Shown here piece by piece: positions 37,074 to 47,254 of a stretch of DNA of 64,000 bases. Origin of the DNA: an uncultured bacterium (GTDB taxonomy: Bacteria > Planctomycetota > UBA1135 > GCA-002686595). Position 1 is the stretch's first letter. Each line of letters starts with the position of its first letter. The stretch lies in NCBI GenBank assembly GCA_943787795.1, contig CALSNU010000001.1, positions 1,120,001 to 1,184,000 on the forward strand, written 5' to 3'. Position numbers and translations under genes: made by a program. A model generated the notes under the pieces. The model was not told the origin of the DNA. It worked only from the letters and a program-made list of their open reading frames with translations, and ran no database searches.

Positions 37074-38240
37074 ATGATCCAGAACGCCGGCGGCCCCTTC
37101 TCACACGAGCCCGACTCGTTGCTCGCGCCCGTGGGCGACGTGGACGGGCACGGCCCCAGTCTGGACTCGCTCCCTGACCTGGACACGGTGCTCGTGCTGG
37201 GCGGCGGCGCGATGCGCGGAATGGCGCACATCGGCGTGCTCCGCGCCCTCGACGACCTCGGGATCAGCGTGGACGCGATCGTCGGCACGAGCATCGGCTC
37301 ATTGATCGGGGCGCTCTACGCCAGCTCCATGAGCCCCGCCGAGATGGGGGAGGTGCTCCCCGGGCTCGCCAAGGACGACTACTTCCGACTGAACTTCGCC
37401 AAGTTCCTCAGCCGCGGCATTCGCGCGCCGAGCATGTACAGCGGCGAGACCTTCCGGAAGAGCCTCGAGCGGCTGATCCCCTCGCGGAACTTCGACGAGC
37501 TGAACCTGCCCTTCTTCTGTAACTCGGTCTGTCTGGAGACCGGCGGCCCGGTCTTCTTCGGGACGCGCGGCTTCCGTGATATCCCGCTCATTCAGGCGAT
37601 CTACGGCTCCTGTGCCCTACCTGGCGTCTTCGAGCCCCTGTCCTGGAAGGGCCGCCACTTCATGGATGGCGGCATCACGGACGCCCTCCCACTGCGTTTC
37701 GCGAAGCTCCTCAAGCCGCGCCGGATCATCGCTATTGACCTCACCGTCAAGCCGAGCCACAAGGTGCCGAACTACCGCTCTCATGCGGTCTCGACTCTCT
37801 TCCGGGCCTTCGACATCGTCGAGAACGTGATCATGGAGCACTCCCTCCATGCCCAGGTCTCGGACGAGGTCTGCCTCGTCCAGCCCAAGATCCGGGACAT
37901 GGATCGGTTTGACTTTGAGCGGGTCCATGAGCTGGTCGAGGCTGGCTACCGTGAGGCCGTGCGAGCGGTCTCATCCCACCCGACCACCCGCGGCCTGGTG
38001 CGGAGCGACCTCCCGGACGGCGTGGCCTGCCCGGTGACCCCGCACGAGTACGTCAGCCTCCGCCTTGACCCTGCCGCGTGCATCGGTTGTGGCATCTGCG
38101 AGATGACCTGCGCGACCGGCGGTTTCGAAGCCCGCGGCGACACGGCCGTGGTGAAGAAGCCGTTCAACTACGACTGTACCCGGGATCAGTCGTGCGTCCG
38201 GGCCTGCCCAACAGGCGCGATCCGGCTCGGGAACCTCTGA
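37074..38240 (+). CDS. Patatin-like phospholipase fused to a C-terminal dicluster ferredoxin domain
   Basis: GGGAMRG, GTSIG, DGG; CIGCGICEMTC and CTRDQSCVRACP. Confidence 0.92.
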   Translation: MIQNAGGPFSHEPDSLLAPVGDVDGHGPSLDSLPDLDTVLVLGGGAMRGMAHIGVLRALDDLGISVDAIVGTSIGSLIGALYASSMSPAEMGEVLPGLAKDDYFRLNFAKFLSRGIRAPSMYSGETFRKSLERLIPSRNFDELNLPFFCNSVCLETGGPVFFGTRGFRDIPLIQAIYGSCALPGVFEPLSWKGRHFMDGGITDALPLRFAKLLKPRRIIAIDLTVKPSHKVPNYRSHAVSTLFRAFDIVENVIMEHSLHAQVSDEVCLVQPKIRDMDRFDFERVHELVEAGYREAVRAVSSHPTTRGLVRSDLPDGVACPVTPHEYVSLRLDPAACIGCGICEMTCATGGFEARGDTAVVKKPFNYDCTRDQSCVRACPTGAIRLGNL

Positions 38241-38548
38241 GTCGATGAGCGAGCGGGGGCCCCTCCGCCGCGCCCCGACGGGCTCTCCTCGCGGTGAGTG
38301 GTCGGCACCGAACGCGTGCCTCAGGAGCGGGTGGGGAGCCCTCTTCACGGAAGAAAGTTCCGGGTGAGCCGCACCGAATCAGGTGGTGGGGTGGAGGACT
38401 TCAACGGCGCCCGCCAACTTCTGCTCAAGGTCTGCCCCGGGAATGACTCGATAAGCGACGTAGAACGGCCCGCGCTCTGTCAGCGGCTGTTCACACCCAC
38501 CAAGTGTCTCGTTTCCCCGCTCGCGTCCGTCCAGTGGCGCTCAAGACC

Positions 38549-41500
38549 GTGAATCTCCTCAGCACGCCTGCCGCCGCCGTAGCGGCCCTGTTCAACAAGG
38601 TCCGTCTCGCGCTTCTCGCCATCGCCGTTGTTGCGGTGCCCGCCTGCTCTTCCTCGAGCGGCCCGGACGCCGTCACGACCGGCGAGATGGTCCAGAACCT
38701 CACCCTCGATCCGGCTGGCCAGACCATCGTCGCTACGCTGCAGGGGCTCGAAGGGACGATCCCTACGGCCTCAATCGAGGCCTCCGGCGGCCAGAGCGCG
38801 ACCAGCGTGACCCAGTCGGGCGCGACGTTCTCCATCACCTTTGACGAGATCGTCTCCCCGGATCACCAGGTCCGGTTCCTGGGACTCAGTGGCGTGACTG
38901 AGGAGTGGCGCCCCGTCACCTCGAGCGACTCACGGGAGACGGCCTTCTCGGTTGTCTCTGCCACGCAGGACACCTCGGACCTCGTGCTGGGGGGGGATAC
39001 GATCTCCGTTGAGTTCTACGCGGGGCCCAGGGTCATCGAGACCGAGGCCGAGGACATTGCCAACTGGACGCTCTCGGTTGAGGGGACGACTCTCGACCTG
39101 GTGGGGTCGAGCATCAGCTTCGATAACGCGACGCAGGTCGCGAGCCTTACCCTGGGCCGCTTCGCGAACCTCCACTCGTCCTTCACGATCAGCTGCAATG
39201 CCGCGACCGTCGCGGCGACGTCCGTCTGGAATGTCACCCTGACCGGGGCGGCCACAGGAGACGCGGCGGCTCCAACCGTCTCGACCGTGACCCAGGACCT
39301 CAACGCGGTCTCCCCTGGCGATGAGTTCGGCCGGGTCCTGGTCTTTGACTTCAACGAGCCCGTCAGCCCGATCTTCGGCGCGCAGCCCGCCAACTTCACC
39401 GTCGTGGATCACGCCCAAGCTCAGGGCGTGACCATGCCGACCAGCGTGGACTTCGAGGCCGGCGACGACTCGCAGCTGCGCGTTACCTTCAGTCGGCCGG
39501 TGGTGCCCGGCCTGGACCAGATCGACATTGACGGGCTGGTAGATGCTCACGGCAACCAGATCGTGGCCGTGACCAATTCGATCATCGCCGGCAGCGCTCC
39601 CGCCAACTCGTTTACTAGCGTGACGTTCGAGACGGTGGAGGGGGCGGGCAACGACCGCATGATCGCCAGCACGTCCCAGGCGCTGGACCCGGACACCGCG
39701 GCAGACGCGGCTCTCTGGGCGCTCACGGTCGGCGGTGGCGTCGGGGTCGTGGATCTCACGGCCCAGACGCTCAGCTACGACCTCCTGAGCCGTACCTTAA
39801 CGGTCGACCTGGTCTTCGACGTCCCGAACGGGACGACCGGCGACCTGGTCGCCTCAGGCGTCATTGAGGTGGACGGTGAGGCCTTCTCCGTCGCCGCAGC
39901 TCAGGCGCTCGCCGCCGGTGACTCGAGCTCACCCGGGGTCTCCTCGCTCACGCAGAACCGGATCACGGACAGTTCCGGCAAGACGGTGGACGTGACCTTC
40001 ACCGAGGACCTCGATCCCACGACCGCGCAAGACCCTGCCAACTACACCTTCGCTCCTGCTCTGACGGTGAACTCGGCCACCTTGATGGCCGGCAATCTCG
40101 TGCGGCTGCAAACGGACGACGTGGCCCTGCCGGGGGACTACACCCTCAGCCTGGCGCAGGTCGTGTCTGATCCGGCAGGTAACGACCTCGGCGCGCCCTT
40201 CGGACCCGCAGCGTTCCCCTCGACGGACGTCGCGGCGCCCTCCGCGATCGCCGCGTCGGGCACGGCGGTCGAAGGAGCTGAGAACGACCAGATCTCTGTC
40301 CTCTTCGACGATGTCATGGTTGCAGCCGAGGTGCAGAATCTGAGCAACTGGACCCTCGAGTCGCCGATCGGCACCCCGGTCAACCTGGCTGGCTCGTCGG
40401 TCACCTACACTGCGGTGAGCTCTGCCGAGCTCAGCATCGCCACGCTCGTGCTCGACGCGCCCGGCGCGGCTGCGCTGGTCCGATCCTACGACCTGCAGGT
40501 CGACTTCAGCGGCATGCGTGACCTCGGAGGCAACTCTGTCCTGGGGACCCCCGTCGCCGCGACCGTGGTCGGTGAGGCCAATCGGCCGGGGCTGGAGGCT
40601 GCCTTCATCAACGCCGGCGTTGGAGACGAGGTCACGCTCCGCTTCTCCGAGCCCATGCGCAGAATCACAGACCTCTTCGACGCCGTCTCGAACCCCGCTG
40701 GGGTCAAGTACACCGTGACGGACGCGGTCAGTGGGTCTCCGCTGACGCCGGTCTCTGTCACGGAGGTGGACGGCGGCCTCGGGGCGGTCCTGTCCTTCGG
40801 TACGGTGATCGATCCGGCGTCCACGGTCGACGTTGTCGGGCTGGTGGACCTCGCGGGGAACGTCCTCTTCCCGGTCCTCGCGTCGGCCCTCGAGGCCGAG
40901 GTCACCGACGTCCCGGCGATCAGCTCGGTGACCTTCCTGGCGGTCGAGGGCAGCGACAATGACCAGATCAGCGTGACCTTCAATCAGCCCATGTCGGCCT
41001 GGGGAATCACCTCCGCGGAGAGCTACAGCTGCGCGGATTCCAGGCCGGCTCCGGTCGCGCTGACGGACGCGGCCTTCAGCTTCGACGGCGTGGACACGGT
41101 CACGATCAGCCTCGCTGCCGCGAGCAACGTGGACCTGCAGAGCGCCCTGACCTATACGCTCACCCTGGAGACGTCGCCGACCCGGCCCCTGCGGACCAAG
41201 TATGGGGTGGCGCTGCCCATCTCCTCGTCCTCGCCGGCGACGGCCGTGACGGGGGACGTCACCGTGGGTCCGTCCCCGACAACCAGCCTGGCCATTGTTG
41301 ACCCGAGCTCCACGGAGAATGCCTTCGTGATCTTCAGCGAGAGTGTCAACGCCACGGAGGCCGTGTACGTCCTGAACTACACCTATGACGGGGGTACGGC
41401 CGCCACCTCAGCGGTGCTGGTCGATCCCCGGGTGGTCCAGGTGACCTTCACCGGGGCCACGGTCGCGCCAGCGGGCGTGGTTGATGTGCTTGCCAGCGTG

Positions 41501-42166
41501 GTTGACACCGCGGGCAACGCCTCCGCCGGCTTGCTGAGCCTGGCGGTGACGTCCGACTCGACCGCTCCGACGATCACCTCTGCGACCGCCGTGATCGCCC
41601 CTGGGTTTGGCGGGGACTACGTGGACGTGGCGTTCAATGAGGCGCTCGACCCCGCGACCGCCTCGGTGAGCGCGAACTATGCCCTGACCGTCGGCGGCGA
41701 GACGCTGCGCCTCCTGGGCGTGATCCACGACAGCGAAGCGAACTCGATTCGCCTGCTGGTCGAGGACATGCCGGAGGGCAGCACCGTCGTCACGACCGTG
41801 CAGAACGTCGCGGACTTCGCGGGTAACGCCCTGGCCCTGCCGGTCGCCACACCCGCGGTCGCGGGCGGGGACGTCACGATCCCTGCGCTCGGCGGTGGGG
41901 TGATCAACCTCTGGTGGGATGCCGCCGGGACGACGGTCGACCTGCGCTTCTCCGAGGACATCGACTACGCCTTCCCCGAGGTCCTGGCGAACTGGAGCAC
42001 CTCAGGGACCGCCACCGTCACGGCGGCCGAGGCGATCGGGCTCGACCACGTGCGGCTGACGCTCTCGGCGCCGCTCGCTGTGGGCGAGACGCTGGACCTC
42101 CAGGCGGGCCTCGCTGACTCCGCTGGCAACGTGGCGGGCAGCCTCTCGATCTCGCCTTCGAACTGA
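38549..42166 (+). CDS. Large lipoprotein built from tandem Ig-like (Big_5-type) domains
   Basis: VPAC lipobox; repeated VxF(S/N/T)E...N(Y/W) and DxAGN motifs; Thr/Val/Ala-rich; start approximate. Confidence 0.88.
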   Translation: MNLLSTPAAAVAALFNKVRLALLAIAVVAVPACSSSSGPDAVTTGEMVQNLTLDPAGQTIVATLQGLEGTIPTASIEASGGQSATSVTQSGATFSITFDEIVSPDHQVRFLGLSGVTEEWRPVTSSDSRETAFSVVSATQDTSDLVLGGDTISVEFYAGPRVIETEAEDIANWTLSVEGTTLDLVGSSISFDNATQVASLTLGRFANLHSSFTISCNAATVAATSVWNVTLTGAATGDAAAPTVSTVTQDLNAVSPGDEFGRVLVFDFNEPVSPIFGAQPANFTVVDHAQAQGVTMPTSVDFEAGDDSQLRVTFSRPVVPGLDQIDIDGLVDAHGNQIVAVTNSIIAGSAPANSFTSVTFETVEGAGNDRMIASTSQALDPDTAADAALWALTVGGGVGVVDLTAQTLSYDLLSRTLTVDLVFDVPNGTTGDLVASGVIEVDGEAFSVAAAQALAAGDSSSPGVSSLTQNRITDSSGKTVDVTFTEDLDPTTAQDPANYTFAPALTVNSATLMAGNLVRLQTDDVALPGDYTLSLAQVVSDPAGNDLGAPFGPAAFPSTDVAAPSAIAASGTAVEGAENDQISVLFDDVMVAAEVQNLSNWTLESPIGTPVNLAGSSVTYTAVSSAELSIATLVLDAPGAAALVRSYDLQVDFSGMRDLGGNSVLGTPVAATVVGEANRPGLEAAFINAGVGDEVTLRFSEPMRRITDLFDAVSNPAGVKYTVTDAVSGSPLTPVSVTEVDGGLGAVLSFGTVIDPASTVDVVGLVDLAGNVLFPVLASALEAEVTDVPAISSVTFLAVEGSDNDQISVTFNQPMSAWGITSAESYSCADSRPAPVALTDAAFSFDGVDTVTISLAAASNVDLQSALTYTLTLETSPTRPLRTKYGVALPISSSSPATAVTGDVTVGPSPTTSLAIVDPSSTENAFVIFSESVNATEAVYVLNYTYDGGTAATSAVLVDPRVVQVTFTGATVAPAGVVDVLASVVDTAGNASAGLLSLAVTSDSTAPTITSATAVIAPGFGGDYVDVAFNEALDPATASVSANYALTVGGETLRLLGVIHDSEANSIRLLVEDMPEGSTVVTTVQNVADFAGNALALPVATPAVAGGDVTIPALGGGVINLWWDAAGTTVDLRFSEDIDYAFPEVLANWSTSGTATVTAAEAIGLDHVRLTLSAPLAVGETLDLQAGLADSAGNVAGSLSISPSN

Positions 42167-42232: not shown

Positions 42233-42348
42233 CGTGCGTGGGGGCGGAGAAGCGGCCTTCGCCCGACATCCGTGATTCCCATACAGATCCCCGTGCAGGT
42301 CGCTCGATAACCCTAGTGCCCGCTTCAAGCGGACTCTTCCTGCCAATC

Positions 42349-42903
42349 ATGATTCGAGACGCCAACTTCGAGGATCTCCGACGCTCGGCCAATCGCCGCC
42401 GGTTGGTGCACATCGTGATCGGTTCGACGGTCCTGTCCACTCTGCTGACGGTCGGCGTGACTCGGGAAGTGAAGATCTACCGGGAGGTCGGCGCCGTTCA
42501 CCCCGCTGATGTCCGCGACCTCTCTGCCCTCGAGCAGCGGAATGTGGAGCTGGAGCGTATCGCGAGGACGCATCACTTCTGGACTGGCGCGATCGGGCTG
42601 CGGGGCGAGATCTCGGACCTGACTGTCGCGATCGCCGAGCTTCGACGCGCATCAGACGCGCGTGAGGCCGAGTCTCAACGGGAAGAGGAGCGCCTCCGTG
42701 AGGAGGCGGAGCTGGAGCGTATGCGCGGCCTTGCGGCCGTGGAGCGGGGCCGGTACTCGGAGGCCTTGAGCCACTTCAAGGCGGCGCGACAGATCTCCGA
42801 TTCGGTCGGCCCGACGGGGTTCGCCGGCGGTCCGTGGAGTCATCGAGAGCAGGTGATCCTCGATATCCAGGCCCTCGAGCAGTGGGAGGCGGAGCGCCGC
42901 TGA
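42349..42903 (+). CDS. Single-TM protein with coiled coil and TPR-like helix pair
   Basis: TM LVHIVIGSTVLSTLLTVGV; RGLAAVERGRYSEALSHFKAA. Confidence 0.8.
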   Translation: MIRDANFEDLRRSANRRRLVHIVIGSTVLSTLLTVGVTREVKIYREVGAVHPADVRDLSALEQRNVELERIARTHHFWTGAIGLRGEISDLTVAIAELRRASDAREAESQREEERLREEAELERMRGLAAVERGRYSEALSHFKAARQISDSVGPTGFAGGPWSHREQVILDIQALEQWEAERR

Positions 42904-42913
42904 GCGAGCAGTC

Positions 42914-43978
42914 ATGGCCCTCTTGAAGAACATCTGGACCCGTGTATCGGGTTACGCCCTGGATCGTGCATCGACTCCTGAGGCGGCCGCGCGTCGGGTC
43001 CGAAAGCTCGCCGGGGGCGGGGACTACAGCGGCGCCCTGGAGGTCTGCAAGGACGCTCTTGACCGCTTCCCCGAGGACCACAAGCTCCAGCGCTTGTCTC
43101 GCGATGTGCGGCTCGCTGAGCGGGACACTCGGCGAAGCTCGCTCATGGCCGAGCTCGAGGCGACCCCCTCGGTGGATGGTTACCGCGAGCTGTGCGACCT
43201 GCTGCTGAAGCGGGGCGAGGCCGCCGGTGCGCTCGAATTCGTCGGCCGCTGGCGGCAGGTCGATTCCTCCGGAGAGCCGCTCTACTACGAGGCGGCAGCC
43301 TTCGGCGAGCTCTTCTTCGGGAACCACCTGAGCCGAGACGGGCTGCGCGCGTTCCAGCTGGCCGCGGAGGCCGGGAAGATCCGGAGGGATGACCCGCGGC
43401 CCTTCCGCCTCCAATTCGAGATCGCGCGCCGCTGTGGTGCCTGGGAAGACGCCCGCATCGCGCTCGCCCGCCTCCTCGACCTGATGCCAGGCAACCGGCT
43501 CATCGAGGGGCGCTTTCGCGGCGTGATCGCCAACTGCGCGAACTCACGATCGCTCTCGAAGGCGATCGCGGACGTCGAGCGCACTGGCCGGTTCCTGGAT
43601 GACGACCTCGACACGGATGGAACCCTCGACCGCGACCTGATCCGCCCGGGCCTGCAAGAGCTCGCTGGGCGGGATGATGTTCACGTGGCGTTCTTCCTGC
43701 GCGGCAATACTGCGCTTGTTCAGGGAGCCCAGGGGACGGCGGCTGATCGATCGGCGCGGGCCGTCCGAGATGTCCTGTCCATGACGCGGAGTTCGTCGCG
43801 GAAGCTCTTGCTGGGCGTTCCGGTGGAGCTGCGCTGTGAGGGGTCCGGTGGGTCGCTGGTCTTGAAGGCGGGCGATGAAGGCACGGCCGCGGTCTGGGCC
43901 GCGCGCAGCCTGACCGAGACATCGAGCCGACTCATGTCCGAGCTTTCGAGCGGATCCGTTGTGGAGAAGGCCGCATGA
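42914..43978 (+). CDS. TPR protein with C-terminal roadblock-like domain
   Basis: GDYSGALEVCKDALDRFP TPR; C-terminal ~110 aa show an alpha-beta-beta-alpha-beta-beta-beta-alpha pattern. Confidence 0.8.
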   Translation: MALLKNIWTRVSGYALDRASTPEAAARRVRKLAGGGDYSGALEVCKDALDRFPEDHKLQRLSRDVRLAERDTRRSSLMAELEATPSVDGYRELCDLLLKRGEAAGALEFVGRWRQVDSSGEPLYYEAAAFGELFFGNHLSRDGLRAFQLAAEAGKIRRDDPRPFRLQFEIARRCGAWEDARIALARLLDLMPGNRLIEGRFRGVIANCANSRSLSKAIADVERTGRFLDDDLDTDGTLDRDLIRPGLQELAGRDDVHVAFFLRGNTALVQGAQGTAADRSARAVRDVLSMTRSSSRKLLLGVPVELRCEGSGGSLVLKAGDEGTAAVWAARSLTETSSRLMSELSSGSVVEKAA

Positions 43979-44607
43979 TGAAGGACGTCCTGGATTCGGT
44001 GACGAGCCAGCAAGGGGTTCGCCTGGCCGCGATCTTCAGCAACGAGGGCGTGCCCCTCTGCATTCTCGAGGCCGACAGCATCGCTGGCGGTTGGGTTGAC
44101 ATCACCACTGGCTCGACCGTCGCGGTCGACGCCGAGCGCCAGCAGGTGGACGCGGCGTCTATCGTGGCCTTCGCAGCGAGCTGGGTCGAGGACCTCGCCC
44201 GGACGAGTGGGGGGGCCGGCTGGGACTTCGAGAAGCGCTTCTCCATGATCGCCACAGAGGGGGCGCTTGTGGTGCAGCTTGGTCCCGGTGCCAATGTCCT
44301 CGCGGTGCTTGAGCCCGGTGCGGACCCCCAGAGCGTTCACTTCCCCATGGATGTCGCGGTTGAGCGCCTTCATCGGCTGCTCCGCGAAATGGGCCGATCC
44401 GAACAGGAGCAACCGCCCGCGCCGATCGCGGGCGTTCAAACGGAGAGCGAGGGGGCCGCCAGCGCGGCTGGATCCTCGAAGCCGAGCGGAACGGTTCCGC
44501 TCGGGCAACTGATGACCAACACCGTCAGTGAGCCGGGCGCGGCCGCTGACGTCCCGACGGCTGGCGCCGTCAACAACGCAACCAACAGATCCTCGGGAGA
44601 CCACTGA
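43975..44607 (+). CDS. Roadblock/LC7 domain protein (MglC-like)
   Basis: GVRLAAIFSNEGVPL; FSMIATEGALVVQ; VLAVL; ATGA overlap with the upstream gene. Confidence 0.82.
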   Translation: MMKDVLDSVTSQQGVRLAAIFSNEGVPLCILEADSIAGGWVDITTGSTVAVDAERQQVDAASIVAFAASWVEDLARTSGGAGWDFEKRFSMIATEGALVVQLGPGANVLAVLEPGADPQSVHFPMDVAVERLHRLLREMGRSEQEQPPAPIAGVQTESEGAASAAGSSKPSGTVPLGQLMTNTVSEPGAAADVPTAGAVNNATNRSSGDH

Positions 44608-44608
44608 G

Positions 44609-45934
44609 ATGGTTCAGATCAACTTTGCTCAGAAGAGCGTGACGGTGAAGATCGTCTACTACGGCCCCGGCATGTCCGGAAAGACCACCAACCTCGAGAT
44701 CGTCCATCAGCGGGCGCCCGAGTCCAACAAGGGGGATCTGACCAGCATCTCGACGGACGGCGATCGAACGCTGTTCTTCGACTTCATGCCCCTGGACCTG
44801 GGGACGGTGGCGGGGATGCGGACGCAGTTCCAGCTCTACACGGTTCCTGGCCAGGTCTACTACAACTCGACGCGCAAGCTAGTGTTGCAGGGCGTGGACG
44901 GTGTCATCTTCATCGCTGACTCCAGCGGCTCGATGATGGATGAGAACCTGGAGTCTCTCCGCAACCTGGAGGAGAACCTCCGGGAGTACGGGAAGGACAT
45001 CTCCACCATCCCGATGGTGATCCAATACAACAAGCGCGACCTGCCGGACGCGCTCTCTGTCGAGGAGTTGGAGGCCAAGATCAACCGCTACGGCGCCCCC
45101 TCGTTCGAGGGCATCGCGAGCTCAGGCCAAGGCGTCTTTCCGACGCTGAAGTCCCTCGCAGCGAGCGTGCTCGACACGATCCATGAGCAGACAGGCGCGG
45201 CGAGCGCTGGCCGTCCGGCGACCGCCCCCGCGGCAGTACAGCCCGCCGCAGTGCAGCCCGCCGCAGTGCAGCCCGCGGCCCCGCTTCCGGCGCCCGCGGC
45301 CGCCGCGCCTGCCCCGCAGCAGCCACCCGCCGTTCCCGCCTTGGCGGGGCAGGGGCAGCAGGGTGCTGCGGCGCTGGGGACGCCGCCCCAGCCAGCTGGC
45401 GCTGCACCGATGATGTCGATGCCGCCCACCGCCCCGGCTCCACAGGCTCCTGCAGCTCAGGCCCCCGCTGCCCAGGCCCCCGCTGCCCCGGCCCAGCCCG
45501 CCCAGGCTTCGGCGCCGACCGCCCCGGCGGAGGGGCTGCGCCTCGCGGAAAGTCGTCCTGCATCCGCCGCTCCGGCTCCCATGAGCCCGCCGGCCATGCC
45601 CGCCTCACCCCCCGCTTCGGCGATCCCGATGGCTCCGACCCCGCCCCCTGCGTCCTCGCCGCCTCAGGCGCCGGCCGCCAACAGGGGCGCGACGGCTCGG
45701 GCCTATGCGCCCACGGTCGCAGGTCAGCCAGGCCCCGGCGCCTCGGTGCCCGGGCCTCGCGCAGGCAGCACGGCGCCTTCCGGACGCCTTCGCCCGCGCG
45801 GCGCCTCCACTCGGGCCATGTCGGCGACGCCTCAGCAGTCGGCCAGGAAATCCACGTTCATCACCGCCGCCGTGGTCGTCGTCGCTGTTGCGGCGGGGAT
45901 CGCGATCGGCGGAGCCGTGTTCAACCTTATCTGA
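44609..45934 (+). CDS. mglA: MglA-family small GTPase with Pro/Ala/Gln linker and C-terminal TM
   Basis: KIVYYGPGMSGKTTN, DRTLFFDF, LYTVPGQ, YNKRD; ends FITAAVVVVAVAAGIAIGGAVFNLI. Confidence 0.95.
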   Translation: MVQINFAQKSVTVKIVYYGPGMSGKTTNLEIVHQRAPESNKGDLTSISTDGDRTLFFDFMPLDLGTVAGMRTQFQLYTVPGQVYYNSTRKLVLQGVDGVIFIADSSGSMMDENLESLRNLEENLREYGKDISTIPMVIQYNKRDLPDALSVEELEAKINRYGAPSFEGIASSGQGVFPTLKSLAASVLDTIHEQTGAASAGRPATAPAAVQPAAVQPAAVQPAAPLPAPAAAAPAPQQPPAVPALAGQGQQGAAALGTPPQPAGAAPMMSMPPTAPAPQAPAAQAPAAQAPAAPAQPAQASAPTAPAEGLRLAESRPASAAPAPMSPPAMPASPPASAIPMAPTPPPASSPPQAPAANRGATARAYAPTVAGQPGPGASVPGPRAGSTAPSGRLRPRGASTRAMSATPQQSARKSTFITAAVVVVAVAAGIAIGGAVFNLI

Positions 45935-45942
45935 GGGGCTCC

Positions 45943-46446
45943 ATGCGTATCTCGGATGAGAACCTCCGGCAGGGCCGGCTCGTGTTCTACGAGCAGGACG
46001 TCTGCCGACTCGACGGGGAGCTCGACGGCTTCCTCGAATTCTCCGGTGCCCGATGCGCGGTCCTGATTGACCGTGAGGGGCACCTGGTGACCCGCCGTGG
46101 CGATACCGCTTCTGCCAACCTCGACTCGCTATCGGCGCTCATGGCCGGCAGCTTCGCGGCGACCAAGGAGATCGCTCATCAGCTCGGCGAGGAGAGCTTC
46201 AGCACGCTGCTGCACCAGGGCGATCAGCAGAGCATTCAGGTTTCGATCGTGGGAGAGCGGACGCTCTTCTGCGTGGTCTGGGATGAGCGAAGCAACTTCG
46301 GCCTCGTTCGGTTCTACGCCCAGGAGACGACGAAGCGGCTCGAGCAGATCTTCAAGGAGATGTCAGATCGCACGGAAAACCCGAGCGTGAGCCTGTCGGA
46401 CGGATACTCCGACGAGGCGGCAGCTGCGCTCGACGATCTCTTCTGA
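45943..46446 (+). CDS. mglB: MglB roadblock protein (GAP of MglA)
   Basis: LVFYEQD, LIDREG, LSALMAGSFAATKEIA, HQG, FGLVR, acidic C-terminal helix ALDDLF. Confidence 0.93.
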   Translation: MRISDENLRQGRLVFYEQDVCRLDGELDGFLEFSGARCAVLIDREGHLVTRRGDTASANLDSLSALMAGSFAATKEIAHQLGEESFSTLLHQGDQQSIQVSIVGERTLFCVVWDERSNFGLVRFYAQETTKRLEQIFKEMSDRTENPSVSLSDGYSDEAAAALDDLF

Positions 46447-46876: not shown

Positions 46877-47254
46877 ATGGCAAAGAAGAAAGCCACCCGC
46901 AAGAAGGCGACCAAGAAGGCCGCCAAGAAGAAGGTCGCCAAGAAGAAGGTGACCAAGAAGAAGGCCGCCAAGAAGGCGACCAAGAAAAAGGCCACCAAGA
47001 AGAAGGCGACCAAGAAGGCCGCCAAGAAGAAGGTGACCAAGAAGAAGGCCACCAAGAAGAAGGCGACCAAGAAGGCCGCCAAGAAGAAGGTGACCAAGAA
47101 GAAGGCCGCCAAGAAGAAGGTCGCCAAGAAGAAGGCGACCAAGAAGAAGGCCACCAAGAAGAAGGCCACCAAGAAGGCCGCCAAGAAGAAGGTGACCAAG
47201 AAGAAGGCCACCAAGAAGAAGGCGGCCAAGAAGAAGGCCACGCGCCGCCGCTGA
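46877..47254 (+). CDS. Histone H1-like lysine-rich protein
   Basis: AAGGAG RBS at 46861; 69 K plus 4 R in 125 aa, in KKK(AT/AA/VT/VA) units. Confidence 0.93.
   Translation: MAKKKATRKKATKKAAKKKVAKKKVTKKKAAKKATKKKATKKKATKKAAKKKVTKKKATKKKATKKAAKKKVTKKKAAKKKVAKKKATKKKATKKKATKKAAKKKVTKKKATKKKAAKKKATRRR

What the first reader, a model, noticed from the sequence alone, without database searches (positions are those of the whole stretch)
44609..45934. Tail-anchored MglA: Ras-like GTPase on a ~220-residue flexible tether
Seen: a complete MglA domain (intrinsic Arg finger in DRTL, catalytic Gln in TVPGQ) continues without a stop through a Pro/Ala/Gln linker to basic residues (ARKS) and a terminal hydrophobic helix ending 8 bp before mglB. 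Established: characterised MglA proteins are soluble, about 195 aa, and localise through partners. Inference: permanent membrane tethering, functionally analogous to lipidated or tail-anchored eukaryotic small GTPases.
Basis: partly seen in the sequence, partly recalled or inferred. Interest (0 to 1): 0.7.

Follow-up and report, generated by a model that had tools for sequence, protein, structure and literature searches.

The report
Membrane-anchored MglA switch of Planctomycetota
This gene encodes a bacterial Ras-like switch protein (MglA) with a long floppy tail ending in a predicted membrane-spanning helix, a design shared across much of the phylum Planctomycetota, so unlike the soluble forms studied so far it likely works tied to the membrane, as eukaryotic Ras-type proteins do.

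Summary
Real and conserved. Window 44609-45934 is one 441-aa frame: a Group 1 MglA domain, a ~219-aa Ala/Pro linker and a terminal hydrophobic helix. mglB starts 8 nt later. It is not a frameshift: independent assemblies show no indel, and the tail evolves as coding sequence.

Orthologs picked by G domain alone end in such a helix in 98 of 98 complete class-level frames. Elsewhere in the phylum, 70 of 73 carry one. Outside the phylum 0 of 63 do, but 11 of 18 long forms end in a MinD-like amphipathic motif, which points to selection for membrane contact.

The gene lies in a conserved operon: membrane scaffold, TPR-roadblock, roadblock, mglA, mglB. The scaffold is truncated in this family (28 of 28 versus 0 of 50). 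A cultured shape-shifting relative (Poly30) has the same architecture.

Membrane insertion and any polarity role are inferred, not tested. Nine literature searches found no description, and the reference survey excluded proteins over 240 aa. This scan has reported the same family before on other genomes (seven notes). Verdict: new variant of a known kind.

The parts
44609..45934 (+). mglA, 441 aa; the only MglA match in this genome (85% complete)
44609..45193 (+). Group 1 MglA G domain (aa 1-195): G1 GPGMSGKT, intrinsic Arg53, TVPGQ Gln82, NKRD
   Evidence: Foldseek 6izw E 7e-26, target TM-score 0.93
45194..45850 (+). Ala/Pro-rich linker predicted disordered (aa 196-414), with a basic RLRPR motif at 45785-45799 and RK just before the helix; 72-345 aa long in class orthologs
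45851..45931 (+). C-terminal uncharged helix (aa 415-441), predicted tail anchor, with a GxxxG motif
45943..46446 (+). mglB, canonical roadblock GAP homolog, 167 aa, placed after mglA
   Evidence: M. xanthus MglB E 3.6e-22; downstream in 89 of 90 class loci and 68 of 73 phylum loci
43975..44607 (+). second roadblock protein, 210 aa with a low-complexity tail; ends 1 nt before mglA
   Evidence: upstream in 105 of 107 class and 78 of 80 phylum loci
42914..43978 (+). TPR plus C-terminal roadblock fusion, 354 aa; overlaps the next gene by 4 nt
   Evidence: hhalign probability 97%; 106 of 107 class and 75 of 77 phylum loci
42238..42903 (+). membrane helix plus coiled-coil/TPR protein, a truncated form of the ~1070-aa DUF4388-TPR-TM-beta-propeller scaffold of related families (start codon uncertain)

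Best explanation
The gene encodes an intact Group 1 MglA GTPase joined by a long Ala/Pro linker to a terminal hydrophobic helix that is predicted to anchor it in the cytoplasmic membrane, where it likely acts as a membrane-bound GTP/GDP switch marking a membrane site for motility or shape change. Shown: the architecture, the catalytic residues, the conservation and the operon. Inferred steps: (1) the helix inserts with the basic residues and G domain in the cytoplasm; (2) the linker works as a leash that lets the G domain reach partners away from the bilayer, like a Rab hypervariable tail; (3) the downstream MglB dimer is the GAP, as in Myxococcus and Thermus; (4) the TPR-roadblock and the second roadblock form a co-regulator or effector platform, and the membrane scaffold positions the module; (5) the output is likely type IV pilus or cytoskeletal activity at that site. 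Because the switch would not leave the membrane, polarity would be a pattern of GTP loading on a two-dimensional pool, not the release to the cytoplasm seen in Myxococcus.
For: 98 of 98 complete class orthologs chosen by G domain end in a hydrophobic helix. 70 of 73 complete phylum hits carry one, across 35 families. A Lys or Arg lies within 10 residues before the helix in 166 of 168, with 373 such residues before and 70 after, which fits the positive-inside rule (recalled). Linker sequence and length vary while the helix is kept. Long sister forms lacking the helix often end in a basic-aromatic motif like the MinD membrane-targeting sequence: 48 of 90 cluster representatives against a 4% background (motif seen in a passage of 10.64898/2026.10.05.756812). 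R53, Q82 and G1 are invariant in 57 sequences. All 189 complete loci with mglB after mglA have a long MglA, and all 38 with mglB before it have a short one. Genomes with an MglA match average 4.26 PilT-family matches against 2.64 without.
Against: There is no experiment and no dedicated topology predictor. The helix is Ala/Gly-rich and only modestly favourable on a recalled insertion scale (sum -0.39). No pilus, MreB or gliding gene was seen next to the operon in the neighbourhoods clustered, so the output is not shown. PilT-family genes are near-universal (393 of 401), and the copy-number contrast is capped at 5 and confounded by kinship and genome size. 179 of 401 phylum genomes had no match, including whole families such as f3 (0 of 35) and f11 (0 of 24). 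RNA-run contigs cover parts of the gene but do not prove transcription.
Confidence: 0.68

Rival explanations
1. The protein is membrane-anchored, but it is the switch of a trans-envelope signalling complex (periplasmic beta-propeller sensor, DUF4388/TPR scaffold, roadblocks, GTPase), analogous to actinobacterial conservons, and has nothing to do with polarity or motility.
For: The operon opens with a ~1070-aa DUF4388-TPR-TM-PQQ-propeller protein in 50 of 50 loci from other families of the order. No motility gene was seen adjacent. A second MglA in some relatives is fused to what reads as a histidine-kinase module (read by eye, not scanned).
Against: In this family the propeller is lost in 28 of 28 loci while MglA, its anchor and the three roadblocks stay. 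The G domain is Group 1, the class of the polarity proteins, not the conservon Group 2.
Confidence: 0.22
2. The tail is not a lasting membrane anchor. It is a hydrophobic helix that binds a partner, or the linker is cut to release a soluble MglA.
For: The helix is Ala/Gly-rich with GxxxG in 59 of 168. The linker is long and exposed. Two phylum members and many outside replace the helix with a short amphipathic motif.
Against: The uncharged runs are 16-38 residues (median 25) in 182 helices, with basic flanks. The helix sequence is not conserved across families, unlike a binding motif. 14 forms continue with a polar tail beyond the helix, as a spanning segment would allow.
Confidence: 0.09
3. 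An assembly error or missed stop fused an ordinary MglA to neighbouring sequence.
For: The linker is GC-rich and repetitive, and a few homolog records do show apparently frameshifted or truncated tails (8 of 120 lacked the helix).
Against: There is no indel in contigs of four runs from three studies. The tail shows a synonymous excess. 98 of 98 complete orthologs share the design.
Confidence: 0.01

Closest known systems
MglA/MglB polarity module of Myxococcus xanthus and Thermus thermophilus (Group 1 MglA of Wuichet and Sogaard-Andersen, PMC4316618)
   Same: G-domain sequence and fold, intrinsic Arg finger, TVPGQ, and a coupled MglB.
   Different: 441 versus ~195 aa; disordered leash and terminal helix; mglB after rather than before mglA; two extra roadblock genes and a membrane scaffold gene. 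M. xanthus MglA is described as cytoplasmic and diffuse when GDP-bound (PMC9481161 passage).
Eukaryotic small GTPases with C-terminal membrane anchors (prenylated Rab/Ras/Rho; tail-anchored Miro) - recalled
   Same: G domain, then a flexible variable tail, then a basic patch and a membrane anchor.
   Different: The G domain is MglA-type (about 17-23% identity to Ras/Rab). The anchor is a peptide helix rather than a lipid, so GDI-style extraction is unlikely. This is an analogy, not orthology.
MinD C-terminal membrane-targeting sequence
   Same: Long MglA forms in Zixibacteria, Ignavibacteria, Fibrobacterota and a few Planctomycetota end in a similar basic-aromatic motif.
   Different: The window's own protein has a full-length uncharged helix instead. 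The resemblance is by motif and was not tested for binding.
Ragulator-Rag and actinobacterial conservons (roadblock platforms that hold a small GTPase at a membrane) - partly recalled
   Same: Several roadblock domains beside a small GTPase; the second roadblock profile matches CvnB5, LAMTOR2 and Asgard roadblocks.
   Different: Here the GTPase carries its own anchor. No histidine kinase was seen in the operon, and the GTPase is Group 1.

Membership tests
Group 1 MglA | Intrinsic arginine next to the G2 threonine | tested here: met
   R53-T54 invariant in 57 sequences; criterion from a PMC4316618 passage
Group 1 MglA | G3 motif TVPGQ | tested here: met
   T78-Q82 invariant
Group 1 MglA | MglA fold | tested here: met
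   Foldseek top 14 hits are MglA, target TM-score 0.88-0.94
Group 1 MglA | Coupled mglB within four genes | tested here: met
   mglB 8 nt downstream
Group 1 MglA | Single-domain protein of 150-240 aa (survey definition) | tested here: not met
   441 aa; the survey excluded sequences over 240 aa
Group 1 MglA | MglB-stimulated GTP hydrolysis and polar localisation | not testable with these tools
   needs biochemistry and imaging
Tail-anchored membrane protein | One hydrophobic helix at the C-terminus with a basic cytoplasmic flank | tested here: met
   hydropathy 2.55, 27 uncharged residues, RK before it; hydropathy scan only, no HMM topology tool
Tail-anchored membrane protein | Actual insertion in the membrane | not testable with these tools
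   needs fractionation
Myxococcus polarity system (RomR/RomX, SgmX, Agl-Glt) | Orthologs of these partners in the genome | not tested
   only neighbours and the PilT family were examined; the TPR-roadblock gave generic TPR hits only

The most novel reading that the evidence does not exclude
Planctomycetota have a membrane-resident Ras-like switch that organises membrane domains the way Rho and Rab do in eukaryotes, and in the Saltatorellus lineage it directs amoeboid crawling, trunk formation and shape change. The switch sits on a roadblock platform, and membrane contact has been solved in two ways (spanning helix or amphipathic motif).
Probability: 0.2. Interest if true: 0.9.

Novelty: new variant of a known kind. 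Interest (0 to 1): 0.62.

Why it matters
Direct membrane anchoring of Ras-superfamily switches is treated as a eukaryotic trait, and characterised bacterial MglA is cytoplasmic and recruited by partners. A subfamily with a built-in anchor across more than 40 families of Planctomycetota would mean a different way of building polarity. It also gives a concrete, testable candidate regulator for the unexplained amoeba-like movement of Saltatorellus-clade cells. The preprint describing those cells (10.1101/817700) does not mention MglA or any GTPase in its main text. A cultured strain carries the same architecture, so the test is practical.

Tried and rejected
Frameshift or missed stop: rejected.

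Length bias: one search covered only 242-772 aa proteins, so its 112 of 120 was not used alone. It was repeated on genomes with the G domain only.

PilT presence as a co-occurrence test: uninformative, 393 of 401 genomes. Only a confounded copy-number trend remains.

Complex prediction of the MglA G domain with TPR-roadblock, the second roadblock and GTP: weak support. The score was 0.43 against a best control of 0.00, the runs agreed in at least 60% of contacts and partner pLDDT was at least 76. The mark was reached by 116 of 157 solved complexes and 2 of 215 mismatches, but at 0.60 or under by only 18 of the solved ones and both mismatches. MglA-MglB is solved, so the pass may come from memory. 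I treat it as a lead only.

Tree (quick, unrooted, 194 rows; one in five class loci and rows over 45% identity kept): too unresolved to give an order of events. The amphipathic type needs at least 3 label changes.

Promoter and terminator scan: nothing useful; 12 of the 14 terminator-like hits come from the Lys/Ala repeat gene. The RLRPR motif is limited to part of the class (24 of 98, and 0 of 70 elsewhere). The Atlas search gave MglA clusters only. No full-length scaffold gene was found in this genome or three others of its family with one query.

Full report
Observation. Window 44609-45934(+) is a single 441-aa frame. Residues 1-195 are a Group 1 MglA G domain: E 2.6e-67 to Thermus MglA and about 1e-65 to Myxococcus MglA, and the top 14 Foldseek hits are MglA structures. 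G1, Arg53, TVPGQ and NKRD are intact. AlphaFold2 on a 40-sequence alignment gives a confident G domain, coil from about 200 to 414 and a helix at 415-440. The linker is 69 Ala, 52 Pro and 18 Gln in 215 residues. ARKS is followed by 27 uncharged residues to the end. mglB (E 3.6e-22 to M. xanthus MglB) starts 8 nt after the stop. This is the only MglA match in the genome, which is 85% complete.

Artefact tests. Contigs from four runs of three studies show no indel. One DNA contig spans 44620-45292 with no difference, and others cover the rest of the gene. No single contig spans the whole gene, and RNA-run contigs do not prove transcription. Against the three closest relatives, the last 29 codons carry 11-16 synonymous and 2-3 non-synonymous changes, and the linker also has a third-position excess. 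A terminal hydrophobic window arises in 165 of 20000 shuffles. In this genome, 130 of 2461 long ORFs end in one and 18 have it as the sole segment.

Conservation. In the class, 158 of 201 genomes match the G domain. I examined 110 of the 150 listed matches: the best 30, all 51 listed from other families, and 29 lower-scoring ones of the own family. 12 run off their contig or locus, and the other 98 all end in a hydrophobic helix within 15 residues of the stop (294-564 aa, six families). In the phylum, 222 of 401 genomes match. I picked 80 of the 150 listed matches to spread over families outside the class. Of these, 56 have a tail helix, 14 a helix plus a polar tail, 2 an amphipathic end, 1 a borderline helix, and 7 are incomplete or masked. 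The 70 come from 35 families. Whole families gave no match with this query (f3 0 of 35, f11 0 of 24). The protein that its source names Planctomycetes bacterium Poly30 (P0040; 87% identical G domain) has the same design. The preprint 10.1101/817700 (passages and section 4 part 2 read) describes Poly30 as Saltatorellus ferox, with amoeba-like movement, pilus ATPases and two actin homologs. Its main text has no occurrence of MglA or GTPase.

Outside the phylum. Of 65 loci not labelled Planctomycetota, 63 are complete, none has the helix and 18 exceed 240 aa. Eleven of those 18 (Zixibacteria, Ignavibacteria, Fibrobacterota, one Terriglobales, one unlabelled) end in a basic-aromatic motif by my filter. 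The motif resembles the MinD membrane-targeting helix as printed in 10.64898/2026.10.05.756812 (passage). Among the 150 best cluster representatives, 60 have a helix, 48 this motif and 42 neither. The filter is loose, with a few false hits and a 4% background. Over 300 loci, about ten of them duplicates, all 189 complete cases with mglB after mglA are long forms and all 38 with mglB before are short. Kin are not independent, so this defines a subfamily rather than proving co-evolution. The tree is too weak to order events.

Operon. A roadblock gene lies directly upstream in 105 of 107 class and 78 of 80 phylum loci. A TPR-roadblock fusion lies before it in 106 of 107 and 75 of 77, and mglB follows in 89 of 90 and 68 of 73. 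The first gene is a ~1070-aa DUF4388-TPR-membrane-PQQ-propeller protein in other families. The propeller is present in 50 of 50 loci from other families of the order and absent in 28 of 28 loci of the window's family. Here the gene is reduced to about 200 aa (42238-42903), and one query found no full copy elsewhere in the genome. A three-chain prediction gave weak support for MglA binding the two upstream proteins: 0.43 against a best control of 0.00, runs agreeing in at least 60% of contacts, partner pLDDT at least 76. That mark was reached by 116 of 157 solved and 2 of 215 mismatched pairs, but at 0.60 or under by only 18 solved pairs and both mismatches, and it may reflect the solved MglA-MglB complex.

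Mechanism. Shown: architecture, catalytic residues and operon. Inferred: the helix spans the inner membrane with the G domain inside (373 Lys/Arg before versus 70 after in 168 helices; the positive-inside rule is recalled). The linker would be a leash, MglB the GAP, and the extra roadblocks and scaffold would position or regulate the switch. In M. xanthus the GDP form is diffuse in the cytoplasm and the GTP form drives pili and gliding at the leading pole (PMC9481161 passage). An anchored form would instead be patterned by local GTP loading. The output is the weakest step. PilT-family genes are in 393 of 401 genomes. A trans-envelope signalling role is the main rival.

Literature. Nine searches of the open library found no description of a membrane-anchored MglA; (MglA, Planctomycetota, GTPase) returned 0. 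The reference survey PMC4316618 (passages; supplements not opened) dropped sequences over 240 aa, 39 of 488 in its MglA subclade. Passages of PMC3495828, PMC11135422, PMC3791482 and PMC11914678 do not describe it. Subscription papers and bioRxiv supplements were not searchable. The Rab, Miro and Ragulator comparisons are recalled.

Earlier scan notes. Seven notes on other genomes report the same family, the five-gene operon and the amphipathic variant. They are not independent evidence. I had reached the tail and neighbour results before reading them, and took from them the DUF4388/propeller label, which I then checked. What this report adds to the lines of those notes that I saw is the family-specific loss of the scaffold's propeller, the link to a cultured shape-shifting relative, the gene-order split and the weak complex lead.

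Verdict. A real, conserved and apparently undescribed membrane-anchored variant of MglA. Anchoring is likely (about 0.9), and the polarity or motility role is plausible but untested. Interest 0.62.

Noticed in passing
window 46877-47254 (+): 125-aa Lys/Ala-repeat, histone H1-like protein with no Pfam hit; a similar K/A-rich ORF lies downstream of mglB in 44 of 62 class loci checked.
   Followed up: partly
window 38504-42166 (+): 1220-aa Ig-like (Big_5) repeat protein with a lipoprotein-like start, just upstream of the operon; a similar gene is at this position in 21 class loci.
   Followed up: partly
window 37074-38240 (+): Patatin-like phospholipase fused to a C-terminal 4Fe-4S dicluster ferredoxin domain.
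   Followed up: no
L117:1483-3420, L118:295-2079, L119:1453-3366: A second MglA in families f2 and f5 is fused through an acidic linker to what reads as a histidine-kinase module; its G2 region reads ATL/STL instead of RTL, so the intrinsic Arg is missing (by eye).
   Followed up: partly
G207, G268, G236 (L120-L149): Three phylum genomes carry 11, 11 and 14 MglA-like genes with varied C-terminal fusions; the operon copy in G207 and G268 ends in a Lys/Phe amphipathic motif rather than a spanning helix.
   Followed up: partly
L115:1477-2256 (G008): Degenerate operon copy: a divergent MglA (41% identity) that lacks the DRTL Arg motif, still with a C-terminal hydrophobic stretch.
   Followed up: no
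L266, L270, L288, L304: A third long-MglA type ends in a short beta-strand-like domain and has no adjacent mglB.
   Followed up: no
L264, L269, L273, L281, L290, L294, L303: Six Gemmatimonadota loci and one unlabelled locus keep a TPR-roadblock/roadblock cluster upstream but have a short MglA without an anchor.
   Followed up: partly
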